A DNA stretch of 64,000 nt from an uncultured delta proteobacterium. Its GTDB lineage: Bacteria > Desulfobacterota > Binatia > Binatales > Binataceae. Of the stretch, positions 25,641-32,543 are shown one piece after another. Position 1 is the first letter of the stretch; the number at the start of each line of letters is the position of its first letter. Under the pieces are notes generated by a model, which was not told the origin of the DNA, searched no databases, and saw nothing but the letters and a program-made list of their open reading frames with translations. A program made the translations under genes and the position numbers. The stretch lies in contig CAVXXK010000001.1 in NCBI GenBank assembly GCA_963765675.1, positions 480,001 to 544,000 on the forward strand, written 5' to 3'.

Positions 25641-26798
25641 CTATCTCTCGTACGCCGCGAGCTGCTCCTGCCACTTGCTTCCGAAGGCCATTATCAGGAC
25701 CTGCTGATTGATCGCTTCGTCGCCTTCGAGACTGCGCATCTCGCCGCCTCCAGTGTGCGCGATCACCGCGAACGCGGCGCGCGCCTGCTGATAGAACGCA
25801 GGCATCGGCGCGGCCGCGGTGTTGGCCTCGCGATGAACGCGGATGTTGAGCTCGTGCTCGAAGCGCTGATGCTCCTGCGCGGTGGGATCGACGACGCTGA
25901 CGGTGCCGTTTTCGGCGCGGAACTTGCGCTCGAGCTCGAGAATCGCCGCGAACTTGTCCTGCTTTGGCGGCGCGTCGCCGGCCAGCACGATCACCTTGCG
26001 CGCGTAAGGCTTCCAGTCCATCCGATCGATCGCGGCCTGCATCGCGCCGTAGGTGTTTTCTTCCCACTCGCCGCCGCCCTTGGTCTGGATTGCGGACAAA
26101 AACGCGTCGAGCTTCGCCGGCGACAGCGTGAGCGGCTGCACGTCGAGCGGCTCGCCCTCGCCTCCGTACACGACGATTCCAATGCGCGCCGTGGGAACCA
26201 GGCGCTGAATCGCGCGCACGAGCTCCTTCATCCGCGCCTTCACATCCGCCATCACCAGCCGCATCGAGTCGGTCCCGTCGATCACCAGCACGACGTCCAA
26301 TCCATTGCGGCGAAGATGGCCGATGAACCCGCCCCATCCGCCACCGAAGCCGGGGCCGTGCCCGGTGCCAAGTCCTTCGCCACCACGATTGAGCCCGATC
26401 CCGCCCGCTGCGGAACGGACGTAGTCGGTCGCGAGCGCGACCGCCTGCGCCATGTCGTCGGTCCGCGGCAACTCGGTTTGCTGCGGCGCGACGTCGGGCA
26501 TCGGAACTTCCGGCATGTCGAGCTTCTGCATCTCGTCGCCACCACCGCCGCCGCCGCCCGCTTCGAGATTGACGAGGATCAAATCGCGTCCGCGGCTTTC
26601 GTGGACCGTGATAATCAGGAACAGCAGCGCGCCGACATGAATCGCGACCGAAAGCGGAAACGGGCCGCCGACAAACCGGACCGCCCGCGCGATCACGCCC
26701 GCTCCGCCATCCTCGCGGCGCCTGAGCCGCCGGATCGCGATTGCGACGACGATTATCGAGAGGCAAAGCGCTATCAATGCGAACAGGTACGGGTTCAT
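25641..26798 (-). CDS. Membrane-anchored VWA domain protein (paralog 2)
   Basis: Two N-terminal TMs (second with LSVAIH), Gly/Pro linker, LDVVLVIDGTDSM MIDAS, GGGEWEE, VIVLAGDAPP. Confidence 0.88.
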   Translation of the reverse strand: MNPYLFALIALCLSIIVVAIAIRRLRRREDGGAGVIARAVRFVGGPFPLSVAIHVGALLFLIITVHESRGRDLILVNLEAGGGGGGGDEMQKLDMPEVPMPDVAPQQTELPRTDDMAQAVALATDYVRSAAGGIGLNRGGEGLGTGHGPGFGGGWGGFIGHLRRNGLDVVLVIDGTDSMRLVMADVKARMKELVRAIQRLVPTARIGIVVYGGEGEPLDVQPLTLSPAKLDAFLSAIQTKGGGEWEENTYGAMQAAIDRMDWKPYARKVIVLAGDAPPKQDKFAAILELERKFRAENGTVSVVDPTAQEHQRFEHELNIRVHREANTAAAPMPAFYQQARAAFAVIAHTGGGEMRSLEGDEAINQQVLIMAFGSKWQEQLAAYER

Positions 26799-26922
26799 CG
26801 CGACACCTCCTGATCGGGTCCGGGGCGTCTATACAAACGCTCCTGATGATCAGATCGCGCGCGGAAGCTTTTCTTGCAGAATTTCTTTGCGCGGCCGGGT
26901 TCAGAGCAAACGAACCCACGCG

Positions 26923-28356
26923 CTAGGGAGTGCCGCTTGCGGAATTGATCCCACGGCCGAAGGCGGAGACCTGATTCTGCCACTGTTCGCCAAAGGCGAG
27001 GATCAGCACCTGCTGGTTGATGTGCGAGTCGTGCGTGAGCGAGCGCATCGCACCGCCGCCCGCATTGGCGAGCACCTTATAAGCGGCGCGAGTCTGCTGA
27101 TAGAACTCCGGCAGCGGCGTGATTTTCGGCGGCTCCTCGCGATGCACCTTGAGCCAGAACTCGCGCTCGAAGCGCTCGTGCTCTTCCGCCGCCACGTCGA
27201 CGGTGTTGAAAGTTCCGTTCTCGGTCTTGAACTTGCGGATCATCGCGACCAGCGGCGCGAAGTCTTCCTTGCGTGGCGGCGAGTCGCCGACCAGCACCAC
27301 CACCTTCTTCGCGTACGGCTTCCAGTCCATCTTGTCCATCGCGGTCTCGCACGCGCCGAAAGTGTCTTCTTCCCATTCGCCCCCGCCCTTGGCGGTGATG
27401 TGATCGAGGAACTCGGTCAGCTTCTGCGGCGACAGCGTCAGAGGCTGGATCTCCATCGTCTCGCCCTTGCCGCCGAACACGATGATGCCGACGCGCGCGA
27501 TCGGAACCAGCCGATGGATCGCCTGGATGAGCTGCCCCATCTTGGCCTTCACGTCATCGATGATCAGACCCATCGAGCCGGTGCCGTCGATCACCAGCAC
27601 CACGTCCAAGCCCTTGCGTCGGAGTTCTCCGATAAATCCGCCGAAGCCCGTGCCGATACCGTGGCCGTAGCCTGAACCCATCCCACCGCCGCGGCCGATT
27701 CCGATTCCGCCGCCACCGGCCGCGCGCACGTAGTCGTTGGCCATGCCGACCGCCTGCGAGGTATCGATCGCTTGCGGATTGTCCATCTGCTGGGGCGCGG
27801 TGTCTGGCATCGGCACTTCAGGCATGTCGAGATCCTGCATCTCGTTGCCGCCGCCTCCACCGCCGCCCGCTTCGAGATTGACCATGATAAATTCGCGTCC
27901 ACGCTGCTCGTGCACGGTGATGATCAGCAGCATGATCAGCACCAGGTGGATCGCGACCGAAAGCGGAAACGGGCCCACGATGAATCGGAACCCGCGGCGG
28001 AGCGCGGCGACGATGCCCTCGTCCTCGCCGTGGGGCGATAGCTCGGAGTCGTCGTCAGAATCGGCTTCCGCGAGAGCTGGCAGCGCGAGCCTCTTGGGAG
28101 CATCCAGGGCACCGCTGCGGGCGAGAGCCGCGAGATTGCGTTGGCATAGCACGCATCGCGCGGCGTGATGCTCCCAGCGCGAGTATTCGTCCGCATCCAG
28201 CAAGCGAGTAGCGAATGCCGCGAGCACGTCGGCGTCCGGACAATCGCTGCCGGACGCATCAAGCCCATCGGCCAGGCGGCGCGCGGTCAGCACGTCGAGC
28301 GCGTCATTTCCCACTTCGCTATTTTCGCGGTCTTCGCCGTTTATGCGATTAGCCAT
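26923..28356 (-). CDS. zf-HC2 anti-sigma-like domain + TM + VWA domain protein
   Basis: CPDADVLAAF...HHAARCVLC (HxxxCxxC); TM LSVAIHLVL; LDVVLVIDGTGSM; TAATG coupling to the sigma gene. Confidence 0.88.
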   Translation of the reverse strand: MANRINGEDRENSEVGNDALDVLTARRLADGLDASGSDCPDADVLAAFATRLLDADEYSRWEHHAARCVLCQRNLAALARSGALDAPKRLALPALAEADSDDDSELSPHGEDEGIVAALRRGFRFIVGPFPLSVAIHLVLIMLLIITVHEQRGREFIMVNLEAGGGGGGGNEMQDLDMPEVPMPDTAPQQMDNPQAIDTSQAVGMANDYVRAAGGGGIGIGRGGGMGSGYGHGIGTGFGGFIGELRRKGLDVVLVIDGTGSMGLIIDDVKAKMGQLIQAIHRLVPIARVGIIVFGGKGETMEIQPLTLSPQKLTEFLDHITAKGGGEWEEDTFGACETAMDKMDWKPYAKKVVVLVGDSPPRKEDFAPLVAMIRKFKTENGTFNTVDVAAEEHERFEREFWLKVHREEPPKITPLPEFYQQTRAAYKVLANAGGGAMRSLTHDSHINQQVLILAFGEQWQNQVSAFGRGINSASGTP

Positions 28357-29234
28357 TACTTTGCCTGCGAAAGCGCCCGTCCGAGATCGAACGGCCAATC
28401 GTCGGTTCCGAATTCAAAGCAGCGACTGATTTGTTCGTCGCTCAGATGATGCTCGCGCTTGAGCTCGCGCGCGACCCTGCGGCGAATCGCGAGCCGGATG
28501 CGCGCAAGGTTGCGCGATACCGACGACTCATGCTCGCCGAGCAGCGCGCCGGCTTCCACAAGCGTGAGACCTTGCACATAGTAATAAGAGAGACGAAGAC
28601 GGTCGCGCGGCTCGAGCTCGGCAAGCGCGGCGTCGAGCGCTTGCGCGAGCATCGGGATAAACCGCGCGCGGTCCGGATCGGCGGGCGCCGAGTGATTGCG
28701 ATCGCCACTCTCAATCTGCTGGGCATCGGCTGCTGCAGCGGCGTTGGAATGGTATCGCTCGCGCAGCCAATCGGCCTCCCGGCGCACGATCACGACGCGC
28801 AACCACGCGGCGAGCGCGCTTCGGCCATGGTAGTAATCGAGCGGTGAGCGGCGCGGGTTACCTACTCGCGCGACGTCGAAAAGATCGCCGTAGAGGGAGC
28901 TTTCGATTTCGCGCGCTCGATTCGTATCGCGCGCAATCGCGCGCACGAAACTCTCGATCGCGCCGTGGTAACGCGCGTCGAATTCGCGCCACGCCTCGGC
29001 GTTTCCCGCGCGGCATGCCATTGCAAGCGCAAGGTCCTCGACATGAAGGGAATCGAGGAAAATCTCAATTTCGGCAGGATTCGGGATAGCCCCGGCAAAT
29101 CGGCGCTCGATCGCGCGCTCGATCGTCTGCGCGAAATCGGCTTCTGGAATTCTCCAGCGCCGGGCGGCGCTGCGCTCATAGAGGCGCGCGAAGGTCTCAT
29201 GATACGCAGCGCGAAATCCCGGGAGCCCGTCCAT
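28356..29234 (-). CDS. ECF sigma-70 factor with N-terminal extension (myxococcal TIGR03001-like)
   Basis: LHVEDLALAMACRAGNAEAWREF, YHGRSALAAWLRVV, region 4 LEPRDRLRLSYYYVQGLTLVEAG...SSVSRNLAR. Confidence 0.88.
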   Translation of the reverse strand: MDGLPGFRAAYHETFARLYERSAARRWRIPEADFAQTIERAIERRFAGAIPNPAEIEIFLDSLHVEDLALAMACRAGNAEAWREFDARYHGAIESFVRAIARDTNRAREIESSLYGDLFDVARVGNPRRSPLDYYHGRSALAAWLRVVIVRREADWLRERYHSNAAAAADAQQIESGDRNHSAPADPDRARFIPMLAQALDAALAELEPRDRLRLSYYYVQGLTLVEAGALLGEHESSVSRNLARIRLAIRRRVARELKREHHLSDEQISRCFEFGTDDWPFDLGRALSQAK

Positions 29235-29366
29235 CGAGGCTCATCTTCGGCTCGATCCCGCCGAGTCTCAAGACGCCGCGAGCTACTCTCTCTTTCCCGA
29301 CGCGCGAGTGTCCGCTAATCTCGGCATTCAGCCGAGTCCTATCGGCGCGCCCGCAATCGCGGTGGG

Positions 29367-29442
29367 GCCACCCTAGCTCAGTTGGTAGAGCAGCTGATTC
29401 GTAATCAGCAGGTCGTCGGTTCGAATCCGACGGGTGGCTCCA
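29367..29442 (+). tRNA. tRNA-Thr(CGT)
   Basis: 76-nt cloverleaf GCCACCC...GGGTGGC-T-CCA, anticodon loop TT-CGT-AA, T-loop GGTTCGAATCC. Confidence 0.97.
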
Positions 29443-29687: not shown

Positions 29688-30498
29688 ATGCGCGACGAAC
29701 TTCCGAACCTTCGGCCCGACGCCTTCGCCGGCACTGCTGCAGCTTACGCGAAATTCCGCCCACGCTACCCGCGGGCGCTCCTTGACGATCTCCTTGCGCA
29801 AGTCGCGCTGCCGCGCCTGGGCCGGTTGCTCGATCTAGCCTGCGGGCCGGGCCGGATCGCACTCGATTTGGCCGGCTCTTTCGACAGCGCGTGGGCCATC
29901 GATCTCGAGCCCGAGATGATCGCTGTCGGAAAACAGGAAGCGGCGCGGCGAGGCATCGGCAACGTGAAATGGCTTGTCGGCCGAGCCGAAGCCCTGGACG
30001 CTCCGTCCGCCGCGTTCAGCCTGATCACGATCGGCGAGGCATTCCACCGGCTGGAGCAGACTTTGATCTGCGAAAAGGCGCATCAGTGGCTTGAACCTTC
30101 AGGGTGCCTCGTCACGATGGGCAGCCAGAGCATCCTGAATGGCAGCGAACCGTGGCAGATCGTCGTCGCCGAGGTTGCGCGGCGATGGATGGCGCGCGCC
30201 TTTCCGCGCGGCTGGGCGGTCGCGAAGGCAGGCGCGAAGCTCGACCCTGAGCAGGTCCTGCACGATGCGGGGTTCCTGGACGTGATTACGCGCTCGTTCA
30301 CTAAGCCCCACAGTTGGACCTTTGAGCAGATCATCGGATATCTGCAATCGACTTCGGTTTGTTCGCGCAAAGCGCTCGGCGGCGATTTCGAAGCTTTTGA
30401 GAACGACTTGGCGTCGGCCCTTCACGACCTGTCGAGGCGACGAAATTTATCCAGAACAACTCAGCTTCGGGTACACGCTTGGAAGAAAGCCCGGCTAG
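29688..30498 (+). CDS. Class I SAM-dependent methyltransferase (frameshift near 30435)
   Basis: YAKFRPRYP, LLDLACGPG, IGEAFH; plausible C-terminus EIYPEQLSFGYTLGRKPG* in a shifted frame. Confidence 0.85.
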
Positions 30499-30581
30499 GG
30501 CAGGCGAAAATGAAGTTGCTTTGCAACCCGACGGGTGGCTTAAGACAATCCAATAAGGAACCTATCTTGCCGCGAGCGTAC

Positions 30582-32456
<1,875 letters not shown>

Positions 32457-32543
32457 TTGAGTTCCTCGATGTTGCAAACCCATTCTAGCGAAGATCGACT
32501 TTCGGGTGACAGAGCCGGCTCCCGGCGGGCCGTTATCGGGCGC

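What the first reader, a model, noticed from the sequence alone, without database searches (positions are those of the whole stretch)
25641..29234. ECF sigma factor coupled to a Zn-finger anti-sigma / TonB-like helix / VWA fusion and a second VWA paralog
Seen: a three-gene minus-strand unit. The sigma gene is translationally coupled (TAATG) to a protein with a cytoplasmic zf-HC2 motif (HHAARCVLC), one TM with SxxxH (LSVAIH), a Pro-rich then Gly-rich linker (PEVPMPDTAP; GGGGIGIGRGGGMGSGYGHGIGTGFGG) and a VWA domain (DGTGS MIDAS). The third gene is a close paralog with the same SxxxH TM, linker and VWA (DGTDS), but an extra TM replaces the Zn finger. Known: SxxxH is the TM motif by which TonB/TolA engage ExbBD/TolQR motors. 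Sigma factors with the LHxEDL.LA.AC..G extension (TIGR03001-like) usually sit beside Zn-finger Ser/Thr kinases in myxobacteria. Inference: a trans-envelope signalling device in which a VWA heterodimer on a TonB-like stalk senses a ligand or force and releases the sigma factor. I do not recognise this architecture as characterised.
Basis: partly seen in the sequence, partly recalled or inferred. Interest (0 to 1): 0.75.

Follow-up and report, generated by a model that had tools for sequence, protein, structure and literature searches.

The report
Anti-sigma factor built on TonB-like VWA arm
A soil bacterium of the Binataceae has a gene switch whose membrane sensor is a copy of a motor-driven, TonB-like "pulling arm" with a sticky VWA head, so a proton-powered envelope motor may directly control a sigma factor.

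Summary
Three minus-strand genes form a self-contained unit: an ECF sigma factor (28356-29234), a 477-aa protein overlapping it by TAATG (26923-28356), and a 385-aa paralog (25641-26798).

The 477-aa protein (A) has a zinc anti-sigma (ZAS) motif, C39/H64/C68/C71, invariant in 66 of 66 homologs. It also has a TonB-type helix (S133, H137, L144 invariant), a conserved post-helix segment, a Gly-rich linker and a VWA head.

New here: a third paralog (C), 83% identical to A over 373 aligned residues, lies 1.18 Mb away as the fourth gene of an exbB-exbD-exbD operon. VWA homologs adjoin ExbB/ExbD in 28 of 38 loci sampled across the class.

This is the "vWA force transducer" class proposed by computation in 2025 (PMC12204202), function unknown. 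That paper's main text does not contain the words sigma, anti-sigma or zinc.

Related sigma factors pair with ZAS proteins lacking this helix and VWA head, so A arose by domain swap. All 4 sampled genomes with the fusion also carry the motor operon.

Best reading: a motor-coupled anti-sigma factor, with B as a co-expressed output. Motor coupling and the release trigger are inferred.

Earlier scan notes recorded the motor-VWA operon in Binatota and sigma/VWA anti-sigma pairs beside ExbBDD in planctomycetes. None retrieved described this fusion.

The parts
28356..29234 (-). ECF sigma factor, 292 aa. It has an N-terminal extension of about 80 aa and a conserved C-terminal tail of about 35 aa (…DWPFDLGR…).
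   Evidence: TIGR02937 54.2 bits (cut-off 42.9); TIGR03001 89.8 bits (cut-off 154.6); Sigma70_r4_2 29.1 bits. The alignment of 8 orthologs shows the tail is invariant.
29271..29298 (-). Candidate ECF-type autoregulated promoter, GGGAAAG-N16-GCGTCTT, ending about 37 nt before the sigma ATG.
   Evidence: Conserved in the 6 closely related upstream regions aligned, but not evident in L016. The strict pattern occurs twice in the 4.5-Mb genome, and the other copy lies inside a coding frame. Assignment as a promoter is inference from the general ECF -35/-10 consensus, which is recalled.
26923..28356 (-). Protein A, 477 aa: anti-sigma domain, TonB-like helix, linker and VWA head. Its ATG overlaps the sigma stop (TAATG).
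28102..28308 (-). Cytoplasmic zinc anti-sigma domain (residues about 17-85). Zn ligands are C39, H64, C68 and C71.
   Evidence: The four ligands are present in 66 of 66 homologs. AF2 predicts four helices, 18-34, 42-49, 55-67 and 69-80, with pLDDT 73-85. The profile hits DdvA 8rlz at E 0.019 and RslA 3hug at E 0.17. The co-fold with the sigma scores 0.90 against 0.01 for the best control.
27907..27981 (-). Single transmembrane helix (residues about 126-150) with S133-x3-H137-x6-L144, then T147 and H149.
   Evidence: S133, H137, L144 and H149 are present in 66 of 66 homologs. AF2 predicts a helix at 132-157 with pLDDT 77-79. The segment is nearly identical in paralog C of the exbBDD operon.
27868..27903 (-). 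Conserved segment just after the helix, RGREFIMVNLEA (residues 152-163): candidate 'motor box'.
   Evidence: R152, R154, E155, I157, M158, V159, L161, E162 and A163 are invariant in 66 sequences. Its position matches the motor box described for TonB, TolA and vWA transducers (PMC12204202). No strand is predicted in the monomer model.
27625..27867 (-). Gly-run, Pro-rich and Gly-rich linker (residues 164-244).
   Evidence: pLDDT is below 50 across 155-238. The sequence is nonetheless almost identical between A and C.
26941..27624 (-). Periplasmic VWA domain with D257-G-T259-G-S261 and D358.
   Evidence: Pfam VWA_2, VWA_4 and VWA hits. D257, T259, S261 and D358 are present in 66 of 66 homologs. 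Foldseek top hits are VWA domains, including BatB 3ibs.
25641..26798 (-). Protein B, 385 aa: extra N-terminal helix, cytoplasmic loop, SxxxH helix, linker and VWA (DGTDS). It is 59% identical to A.
   Evidence: It follows A in 8 of 8 untruncated loci and forms its own long-branch clade.

Best explanation
This is an ECF sigma / anti-sigma switch. Its anti-sigma factor (A) is a chimera of two parts: a cytoplasmic zinc anti-sigma domain, joined to the membrane helix, post-helix segment, linker and VWA head of the genome's ExbB-ExbD-ExbD-coupled 'vWA force transducer' (paralog C).

Proposed mechanism:
1. The ZAS domain holds the sigma factor at the inner membrane.
2. A's S-x3-H-x6-L helix docks on the same ExbB/ExbD1/ExbD2 motor as C.
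3. A's VWA head binds the same still-unknown periplasmic or outer-membrane ligand as C.
4. When head and motor are both engaged, proton-driven pulling strains A. The sigma factor is then released, most likely through regulated proteolysis of A.
5. The sigma factor drives its own three-gene operon. This raises B, a fast-evolving second VWA arm that uses the same kind of anchor.

Status of the steps. Steps 1 and 2 rest on sequence, synteny and prediction. Step 3 follows from the 83% identity of A and C. Steps 4 and 5 are inference by analogy with TonB-dependent cell-surface signalling (FecA/FecR/FecI) and with ECF autoregulation.
For: Sigma/anti-sigma pair. The genes overlap by TAATG. The ZAS ligands are invariant in 66 of 66 homologs. 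The profile matches anti-sigma factors DdvA (E 0.019) and RslA (E 0.17). The co-fold of sigma with A residues 1-118 scores 0.90, against 0.01 for the best of 3 controls. That mark was reached by 116 of 157 solved complexes and 2 of 215 mismatched pairs. The runs agree in at least 89% of contacts, and the partner's pLDDT is at least 69. The contacts lie on sigma regions 131-154 and 196-254. This is a textbook pair and I used my own alignments, so the pass may reflect likeness to solved complexes and the counts hold only roughly.

Transducer identity. Paralog C (G000:C1:1685213-1686442) is 83% identical to A over 373 residues, including the helix, post-helix segment and linker. C is the fourth gene after MotA_ExbB (100.5 bits) and two ExbD genes (81.6 and 84.1 bits).

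Distribution. VWA homologs occur in 89 of 121 sampled genomes of the class. ExbB and/or ExbD lie within the roughly 1.5-kb flanks in 28 of 38 foreign loci. S-x3-H in a hydrophobic stretch occurs in 62 of 82 representatives of 330 aa or more by script, and in 8 further ones by eye.

Selection. A against C gives dN 0.063 and dS 0.574, so the TonB-like parts of A are under purifying selection.

Co-occurrence. All 4 sampled genomes with the sigma-A unit (G000, G239, G298, G212) also hold exbB-exbD-exbD-C.

Domain swap. Ten sigma relatives at 39-45% identity are followed by proteins with an H-x3-C-x2-C motif but no SxxxH helix or VWA motif; 8 of the 10 hit zf-HC2. Five of the 10 give BNR/Ycf48-like hits, of which one is above its cut-off.

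Published frame. The vWA transducers with SHLS helix and motor box beside a tolQ-like and two tolR-like genes are described in PMC12204202, section 8 (passages read).
Against: No experiment exists for any member of the vWA transducer class. PMC12204202 says that no phenotypes have been reported.

A is not encoded beside a motor. The motor operon lies 1.18 Mb away, so coupling of A rests on its likeness to C.

The fourth SHLS position is V148 (with T147 before it), not Ser.

The monomer model predicts no strand for the candidate motor box, and its overall confidence is modest (mean pLDDT 61.6).

The candidate ECF promoter has no copy upstream of exbB. That region carries a TTGACA-N17-CATTAA sequence instead, so no regulatory link to the motor operon was found.

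The third MIDAS element could not be assigned: T332 is Thr in only 43 of 66 sequences.

The motor helix was not co-folded with ExbB/ExbD here, because the complex exceeds the tool's size limits.
Confidence: 0.55

Rival explanations
1. Ordinary ligand-gated anti-sigma factor. The VWA head simply binds an envelope ligand, and release follows the usual site-1/site-2 proteolysis. The TonB-like helix is inherited from the donor gene and serves only as a membrane anchor, or at most to place A near the motor.
For: ZAS anti-sigma factors with VWA sensor domains are catalogued, for example ECF289 with DUF3520 plus von Willebrand (PMC7826278, passage read). A is encoded away from any motor.
Against: S133, H137, L144, H149 and the post-helix segment are invariant in 66 of 66 fused proteins. 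Meanwhile the ZAS part varies from 44 to 88% identity. dN/dS between A and C is about 0.11. A's helix-to-VWA part clusters with C of the same genus.
Confidence: 0.25
2. One reading: A and B form a VWA heterodimer on two TonB-like stalks, and the pair is the sensor.
For: B follows A in 8 of 8 untruncated loci. Both proteins keep the helix, the post-helix segment and the DxTxS motif.
Against: Not tested here. B evolves about four times faster than A or C: dN between genera is 0.43, against 0.10 for A and for C. That fits an output or variable-specificity arm better than an obligate partner of the slowly evolving A. Stand-alone VWA paralogs without a sigma gene also exist (L083).
Confidence: 0.12
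3. Cytoplasmic redox or zinc switch. The ZAS domain releases the sigma factor on thiol oxidation, as RsrA does (recalled). The periplasmic part only tethers or localises the complex.
For: The C-H-C-C ligand set is complete and invariant.
Against: Many membrane ZAS factors are not redox sensors (recalled). This reading does not explain why the whole 350-residue transducer module is kept under purifying selection and tracks paralog C.
Confidence: 0.08

Closest known systems
vWA force transducers beside tolQ-like and paired tolR-like genes (Mol Biol Evol 2025, PMC12204202, section 8)
   Same: N-terminal helix with the TonB/TolA motor-binding Ser/His/Leu pattern, a conserved post-helix segment, a disordered linker of about 100 residues and a VWA head. 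Paralog C sits after exbB-exbD-exbD, exactly as described.
   Different: A carries a cytoplasmic zinc anti-sigma domain and is co-transcribed with an ECF sigma factor instead of a motor. The paper's main text contains no 'sigma', 'anti-sigma', 'zinc' or 'Binat'; its supplements were not read. No TPR gene lies upstream of exbB on the same strand here.
Class-I zinc anti-sigma factors (RslA/SigL PDB 3hug; DdvA PDB 8rlz; RsrA, ChrR, RsiW recalled)
   Same: C/H-x25-H-x3-C-x2-C motif, a four-helix domain, translational coupling to an ECF sigma, and predicted contacts on sigma regions 2 and 4.
   Different: The membrane and extracytoplasmic parts are a TonB-like force-transducer module.
TonB-dependent cell-surface signalling (FecA/FecR/FecI; PupR/PupI, PMC12809585 seen in a listing only)
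   Same: An ExbBD-type motor is needed to pass an envelope signal to an ECF sigma factor through a single-pass inner-membrane regulator.
   Different: In that system the motor acts through TonB on an outer-membrane transporter, which then touches a FecR-type regulator. Here the regulator itself carries the motor-binding helix. No FecR domain, TonB_C domain or receptor gene lies in the unit.
ECF289-type anti-sigma factors with DUF3520 and von Willebrand domains (PMC7826278)
   Same: An anti-sigma factor with a periplasmic VWA sensor.
   Different: No DUF3520 hit in A. A's VWA belongs to the motor-linked family. I did not test ECF289 proteins for an SxxxH helix.
TonB / TolA
   Same: The helix motif and the gene position of paralog C in an exbB-exbD(-exbD) operon.
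   Different: No TonB_C domain. The genome has separate canonical TonB_C proteins and Tol- and Ton-type motors.

Membership tests
vWA force transducer (PMC12204202) | Transmembrane helix with the SHLS motor-binding motif | tested here: met
   S133-x3-H137-x6-L144 is present in 66 of 66 homologs. The fourth position is V148, with T147 before it, not Ser.
vWA force transducer (PMC12204202) | Predicted beta-strand 'motor box' in the disordered stretch after the helix | tested here: inconclusive
   Residues 152-163 are invariant, but the AF2 monomer predicts no strand there.
vWA force transducer (PMC12204202) | C-terminal vWA fold | tested here: met
   Pfam VWA_2 37.3 bits. The AF2 model gives Foldseek hits to VWA domains at E 1e-7.
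vWA force transducer (PMC12204202) | Gene lies beside a tolQ/exbB-like gene and two tolR/exbD-like genes | tested here: not met
   A lies beside a sigma factor gene. The feature is met by paralog C, which is 83% identical, and by 28 of 38 foreign loci of the family.
Class-I zinc anti-sigma domain (ZAS) | H-x3-C-x2-C with an upstream Cys or His ligand | tested here: met
   C39, H64, C68 and C71 are invariant. zf-HC2 is above its cut-off in homolog P0039 but does not reach E 0.1 on this copy.
Class-I zinc anti-sigma domain (ZAS) | Binds the co-encoded ECF sigma across regions 2 and 4 | tested here: met
   Prediction only. Score 0.90, best control 0.01; the mark was reached by 116 of 157 solved complexes and 2 of 215 mismatched pairs. 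This is a textbook pair, so the pass may come from memory of solved complexes.
ECF sigma factor | Passes the sigma70-ECF superfamily model | tested here: met
   TIGR02937 54.2 bits, cut-off 42.9.
TIGR03001 (Myxococcales sigma family 1) | Score above the curated cut-off | tested here: not met
   89.8 bits against a cut-off of 154.6.
ECF group of classification 2.0 | Assignment by the group HMMs | not testable with these tools
   No ECF-group models are held here. Only the main text of PMC7826278 was searched for passages.
ECF289-type VWA anti-sigma | DUF3520 domain fused to von Willebrand domains | tested here: not met
   No DUF3520 hit at E 0.1.
TonB | TonB_C domain | tested here: not met
   No TonB_C hit in A, B or C. 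The genome-wide TonB_C hits lie elsewhere.

The most novel reading that the evidence does not exclude
The anti-sigma factor is itself a working force transducer. The ExbB-ExbD-ExbD motor pulls on A whenever its VWA head has caught the same envelope target as the main arm C, and that mechanical load is the signal that frees the sigma factor. This would be a receptor-less, TonB-less form of cell-surface signalling, and a natural transcriptional read-out of an otherwise uncharacterised envelope machine. The N-terminal FHA domains found on many relatives would then mean that vWA transducers are commonly wired to cytoplasmic signalling.
Probability: 0.35. Interest if true: 0.85.

Novelty: new variant of a known kind. 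Interest (0 to 1): 0.66.

Why it matters
The vWA force transducers are a class of motor-driven envelope proteins proposed in 2025. They are found in several phyla, and no phenotype or ligand is known for them.

A natural fusion of such a transducer to an anti-sigma domain supplies what the field lacks, namely a built-in reporter. Sigma-dependent transcription from the operon's own promoter should report when the arm is engaged. The ligand, the need for the motor and the role of the conserved His then become testable with standard genetics in a surrogate host.

It would also be the first case in which an ECF regulator carries the motor-binding helix itself, instead of receiving the signal through TonB and an outer-membrane receptor.

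The pattern that A's sensor part tracks the working arm C while B diverges quickly suggests a design of a sensor copy plus a replaceable arm, which may apply more widely.

Tried and rejected
Regulon link. I looked for the conserved upstream motif elsewhere in the genome. The strict pattern has 2 hits, and the second lies inside a sulfatase-like coding frame. There is no copy before exbB. No target beyond the operon itself could be named.

Expression.

Motor docking. The single complex job went to the sigma/ZAS pair.

Fusion outside Binataceae. The top 150 of the 50%-identity representatives were screened for an H-x3-C-x2-C motif. Outside the full-length cluster P0026, only two short Binataceae-like fragments (P0132, P0248) have it before the helix. 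The genome and metagenome scans with the ZAS part returned 6 and 2 loci.

Simple scans. No sigma-70-like promoter was found, and no terminator-like site on the minus strand inside the unit.

Literature. 'anti-sigma' with 'SHLS' gave 0 papers, 'Binatia' with 'TonB' gave 0, and 'TIGR03001' gave 0. 'force transducer' with 'vWA' gave only PMC12204202 as relevant. 'FHA' with 'von Willebrand' and 'ExbB' gave nothing on this architecture by title and abstract start.

Gene conversion versus independent fusion. A and C of one genus are closer at synonymous sites (dS 0.48-0.57) than A-A or C-C between genera (0.70-0.74). With two lineages I cannot tell repeated conversion from two separate swaps.


Full report
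OBSERVATION

The window is G000:C1:480001-544000 of a 4.5-Mb, 16-contig assembly. Source names of close homologs say Candidatus Binataceae or Candidatus Binatus.

- a 292-aa sigma factor, 28356-29234;
- protein A, 477 aa, 26923-28356, whose ATG shares its A with the sigma stop in AAGTAATGG;
- protein B, 385 aa, 25641-26798, after a 124-nt gap that ends in AGGAGG-N8-ATG.

The neighbours are unrelated. On one side lie a convergent alpha/beta-hydrolase-like gene, a YchF GTPase and a CCG/4Fe-4S protein. On the other lie a tRNA-Thr(CGT) at 29367-29442, a methyltransferase and a flavin monooxygenase. The simple scan finds no sigma-70-like promoter, and no terminator-like site on the minus strand inside the unit. 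The unit is therefore self-contained.

THE THREE PROTEINS

Sigma factor. It passes the ECF superfamily model TIGR02937 (54.2 bits, cut-off 42.9). It is most like TIGR03001 but falls below that cut-off (89.8 against 154.6). It is the only strong TIGR03001-like gene in the genome. An alignment of 8 orthologs shows an N-terminal extension and an invariant C-terminal tail.

Protein A has five parts.
- Anti-sigma domain. C39-x24-H64-x3-C68-x2-C71 is invariant in 66 of 66 full-length homologs. AF2 predicts four helices with pLDDT 73-85. Pfam zf-HC2 misses this copy at E 0.1 but hits homolog P0039 (24.5 bits, cut-off 22.2) and 2 of 8 N-terminal domains. A profile of 8 N-terminal domains finds anti-sigma factor DdvA (8rlz, E 0.019) and RslA (3hug, E 0.17) as the first and third of only 6 PDB matches at E up to 10. 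The second match, 8rot_B, aligns to the same residues as DdvA.
- Transmembrane helix. One helix with S133, H137, L144 and H149 invariant.
- Post-helix segment. Residues 152-163 are invariant.
- Linker. It is modelled as disordered.
- VWA domain. Foldseek top hits are VWA domains, BatB among them. D257, T259, S261 and D358 are invariant. The third MIDAS element could not be assigned.

Protein B is 59% identical to A from the helix onward. It has an N-terminal hydrophobic helix in place of the Zn finger.

SIGMA AND ANTI-SIGMA

The co-fold of the sigma with A residues 1-118 scored 0.90. The best of 3 controls scored 0.01. That mark was reached by 116 of 157 solved complexes and 2 of 215 mismatched pairs. 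The runs agree in at least 89% of contacts, and the partner's pLDDT is at least 69. The interface covers sigma residues 131-154 and 196-254 and part of the C-terminal tail.

This is a textbook kind of pair and my own alignments were used. The pass shows likeness to solved sigma/anti-sigma complexes, and the calibration counts hold only roughly.

THE KEY NEW FACT: A THIRD PARALOG IN A MOTOR OPERON

A search of the whole genome found a third paralog, C, at C1:1685213-1686442. It is 83% identical to A over 373 residues, covering the juxtamembrane stretch, helix, post-helix segment, linker and VWA domain.

C is the fourth gene of an operon:
- exbB (MotA_ExbB, 100.5 bits);
- exbD (81.6 bits);
- a second exbD (84.1 bits);
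- C;
- a 192-aa secreted protein with no Pfam family.

The genome also has a Tol-like motor followed by a TonB_C protein and a TolB-like gene. It has a receptor-exbB-exbD-tonB cluster and further TonB_C proteins. The VWA arm is therefore an extra system, not a replacement for TonB.

DISTRIBUTION

- In a sample of 121 genomes of the class, 89 have a VWA homolog at E 1e-10 or better.
- Of the 38 foreign loci fetched, with about 1.5-kb flanks, 28 show ExbB and/or ExbD next to the VWA gene. The 10 without are two sigma-linked loci, three cut by contig ends or weak, and five others. One of the ten, L021, comes from a genome flagged as unpublished.
- In the library of 50%-identity representatives, 2819 proteins match at E 0.001 or better.
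- Of the 82 listed representatives of 330 aa or more, 62 have S-x3-H at the start of a hydrophobic stretch by script, and 8 of the 20 misses have it by eye.
- Of 25 longer relatives scanned, 14 carry an N-terminal FHA domain and 2 more an FHA-fold hit, ahead of the helix and VWA domain.

WHAT IS KNOWN

Section 8 of PMC12204202 (Mol Biol Evol 2025; passages read) describes this class: a helix with the SHLS motif, a motor box, a linker of about 100 residues and a vWA head, beside a tolQ-like gene and two tolR-like genes. AF3 models there place the conserved His at the motor. The function is unknown, and the paper says no phenotypes have been reported.

Its main text holds no occurrence of 'sigma', 'anti-sigma', 'zinc' or 'Binat', and 'FHA' only as FhaC. 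Its supplements were not read.

The ECF re-classification (PMC7826278; passages read) lists an anti-sigma type with DUF3520 fused to a von Willebrand domain for ECF289. A has no DUF3520.

Searches for 'anti-sigma' with 'SHLS', 'Binatia' with 'TonB', and 'TIGR03001' each found 0 papers.

HOW THE FUSION AROSE AND HOW FAR IT REACHES

Scans with the ZAS part found 6 genome loci and 2 metagenome loci. Together with two loci from the class search there are 10:
- the sigma gene is directly upstream in 10 of 10;
- a B-type gene follows in 8 of 8 loci not cut by a contig end;
- three pairs look like duplicates, leaving about 7 distinct loci.

The protein search lists more than 60 clusters of 450-495 aa that cover 92-100% of A.

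The sigma family occurs in 13 of 121 sampled genomes. In G212 and G298 the next gene is the fused type. In 10 loci with more distant sigma relatives (39-45% identity), the next gene has an H-x3-C-x2-C motif but no SxxxH helix and no VWA motif; 8 of the 10 hit zf-HC2. Five of the 10 give BNR/Ycf48-like hits, and only one is above its cut-off. The fusion is thus a domain swap: the sensor half of an ordinary ZAS anti-sigma factor was replaced by the transducer module.

All 4 sampled genomes with the fusion (G000, G239, G298, and the fragmented G212) also have exbB-exbD-exbD-C.

EVOLUTIONARY PATTERN

In a tree of the helix-to-end region (33 rows), the B proteins form their own long-branch clade (support 96/94). 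The A proteins sit among the C proteins. The A of G298 groups with C proteins of its own genus (92/97).

Pairwise divergence:

| Pair | dN | dS |
|---|---|---|
| Own A vs own C | 0.063 | 0.574 |
| A vs A between genera | 0.104 | 0.70 |
| C vs C between genera | 0.101 | 0.74 |
| G298 A vs C of its genus | - | 0.48-0.55 |
| B vs B between genera | 0.43 | - |

A is therefore kept like the working arm C, whether by selection, by gene conversion or by repeated swapping. B changes about four times faster.

MECHANISM

Shown or strongly supported:
- a sigma/anti-sigma pair;
- A's membrane and periplasmic half is a vWA-transducer module under purifying selection;
- the module's paralog belongs to an ExbB-ExbD-ExbD operon.

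Inferred:
- A docks on that motor through S133/H137/L144 and the post-helix segment;
- A binds C's unknown ligand;
- motor-driven load on the ligand-bound arm triggers release of the sigma factor, probably by proteolysis;
- the sigma factor drives its own operon from the conserved GGGAAAG-N16-GCGTCTT element at 29271-29298, which raises B.

No link from this promoter to the motor operon was found.

I put 0.55 on this composite, about 0.65 on physical motor coupling of A, and about 0.35 on force being the actual trigger. The rivals are a plain ligand-gated anti-sigma factor with an inherited anchor, an A-B heterodimer sensor, and a cytoplasmic redox switch.

EARLIER NOTES OF THIS SCAN

Two notes recorded exbB-exbD-exbD-VWA operons in other Binatota genomes and named the same 2025 paper. 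I reached the operon and the paper independently, and the results agree.

Other notes describe ECF sigma plus 'vWA anti-sigma' pairs beside ExbB-ExbD-ExbD in planctomycetes, YfbK-type VWA anti-sigma factors, and an anti-sigma/TonB_C/VWA fusion. I could not test whether any of those carries the SxxxH helix. None of the notes retrieved describes the ZAS/SHLS-helix/VWA fusion.

VERDICT

The architecture combines two known kinds, one of which was described only by computation in 2025. The fusion was found here only in Binataceae or unnamed assemblies. It is a new variant with a clear experimental handle. Interest 0.66.

Noticed in passing
window 29367-29442 (+): A tRNA-Thr(CGT) gene lies divergently about 130 nt upstream of the sigma gene. 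It is conserved at that place in the closely related loci.
   Followed up: partly
proteins P0206, P0234, P0238, P0240, P0246, P0265, P0266, P0269, P0217, P0223, P0229, P0244, P0250, P0264: Many distant relatives of 576-732 aa have an N-terminal FHA domain, then the SxxxH helix, then VWA (14 of 25 scanned). This suggests that VWA arms are often wired to phospho-threonine signalling. Their gene neighbourhoods could not be seen.
   Followed up: partly
protein P0130 (529 aa): A sigma factor of this family appears joined directly to a VWA domain, with no Zn finger or helix. It may be a deletion or a gene-calling artefact.
   Followed up: no
G000:C1:1684584-1685162 (-); G000:C3:344497-345066 (-); L083:6027-6374: A 192-aa secreted protein with no Pfam family follows VWA arm C in 8 loci that show it (L002, L017-L020, L065, L066, L083). 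It also follows a stand-alone VWA paralog in G314. By eye, a look-alike lies just downstream of a canonical TonB_C gene on contig 3. It is a candidate partner of TonB-type arms.
   Followed up: partly
L079 / L082 (G274:C1:2490253-2491109): In G274 the related sigma gene matches in two pieces, residues 5-160 and 182-291, in separate frames. It is followed by a short Zn-finger frame, so it is possibly a decayed copy.
   Followed up: no
L027, L030, L034, L037, L040, L041: In some class members the VWA gene has only a distant ExbB-like neighbour (24-28% identity) and no ExbD hit within the flank, although the SxxxH helix is present.
   Followed up: no
window 29688-31274 (+) and 30582-32483 (-): The long plus-strand frame of the methyltransferase overlaps the flavin monooxygenase gene on the other strand. 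Only its first 140 or so residues match methyltransferase models, so the real gene is probably much shorter.
   Followed up: no
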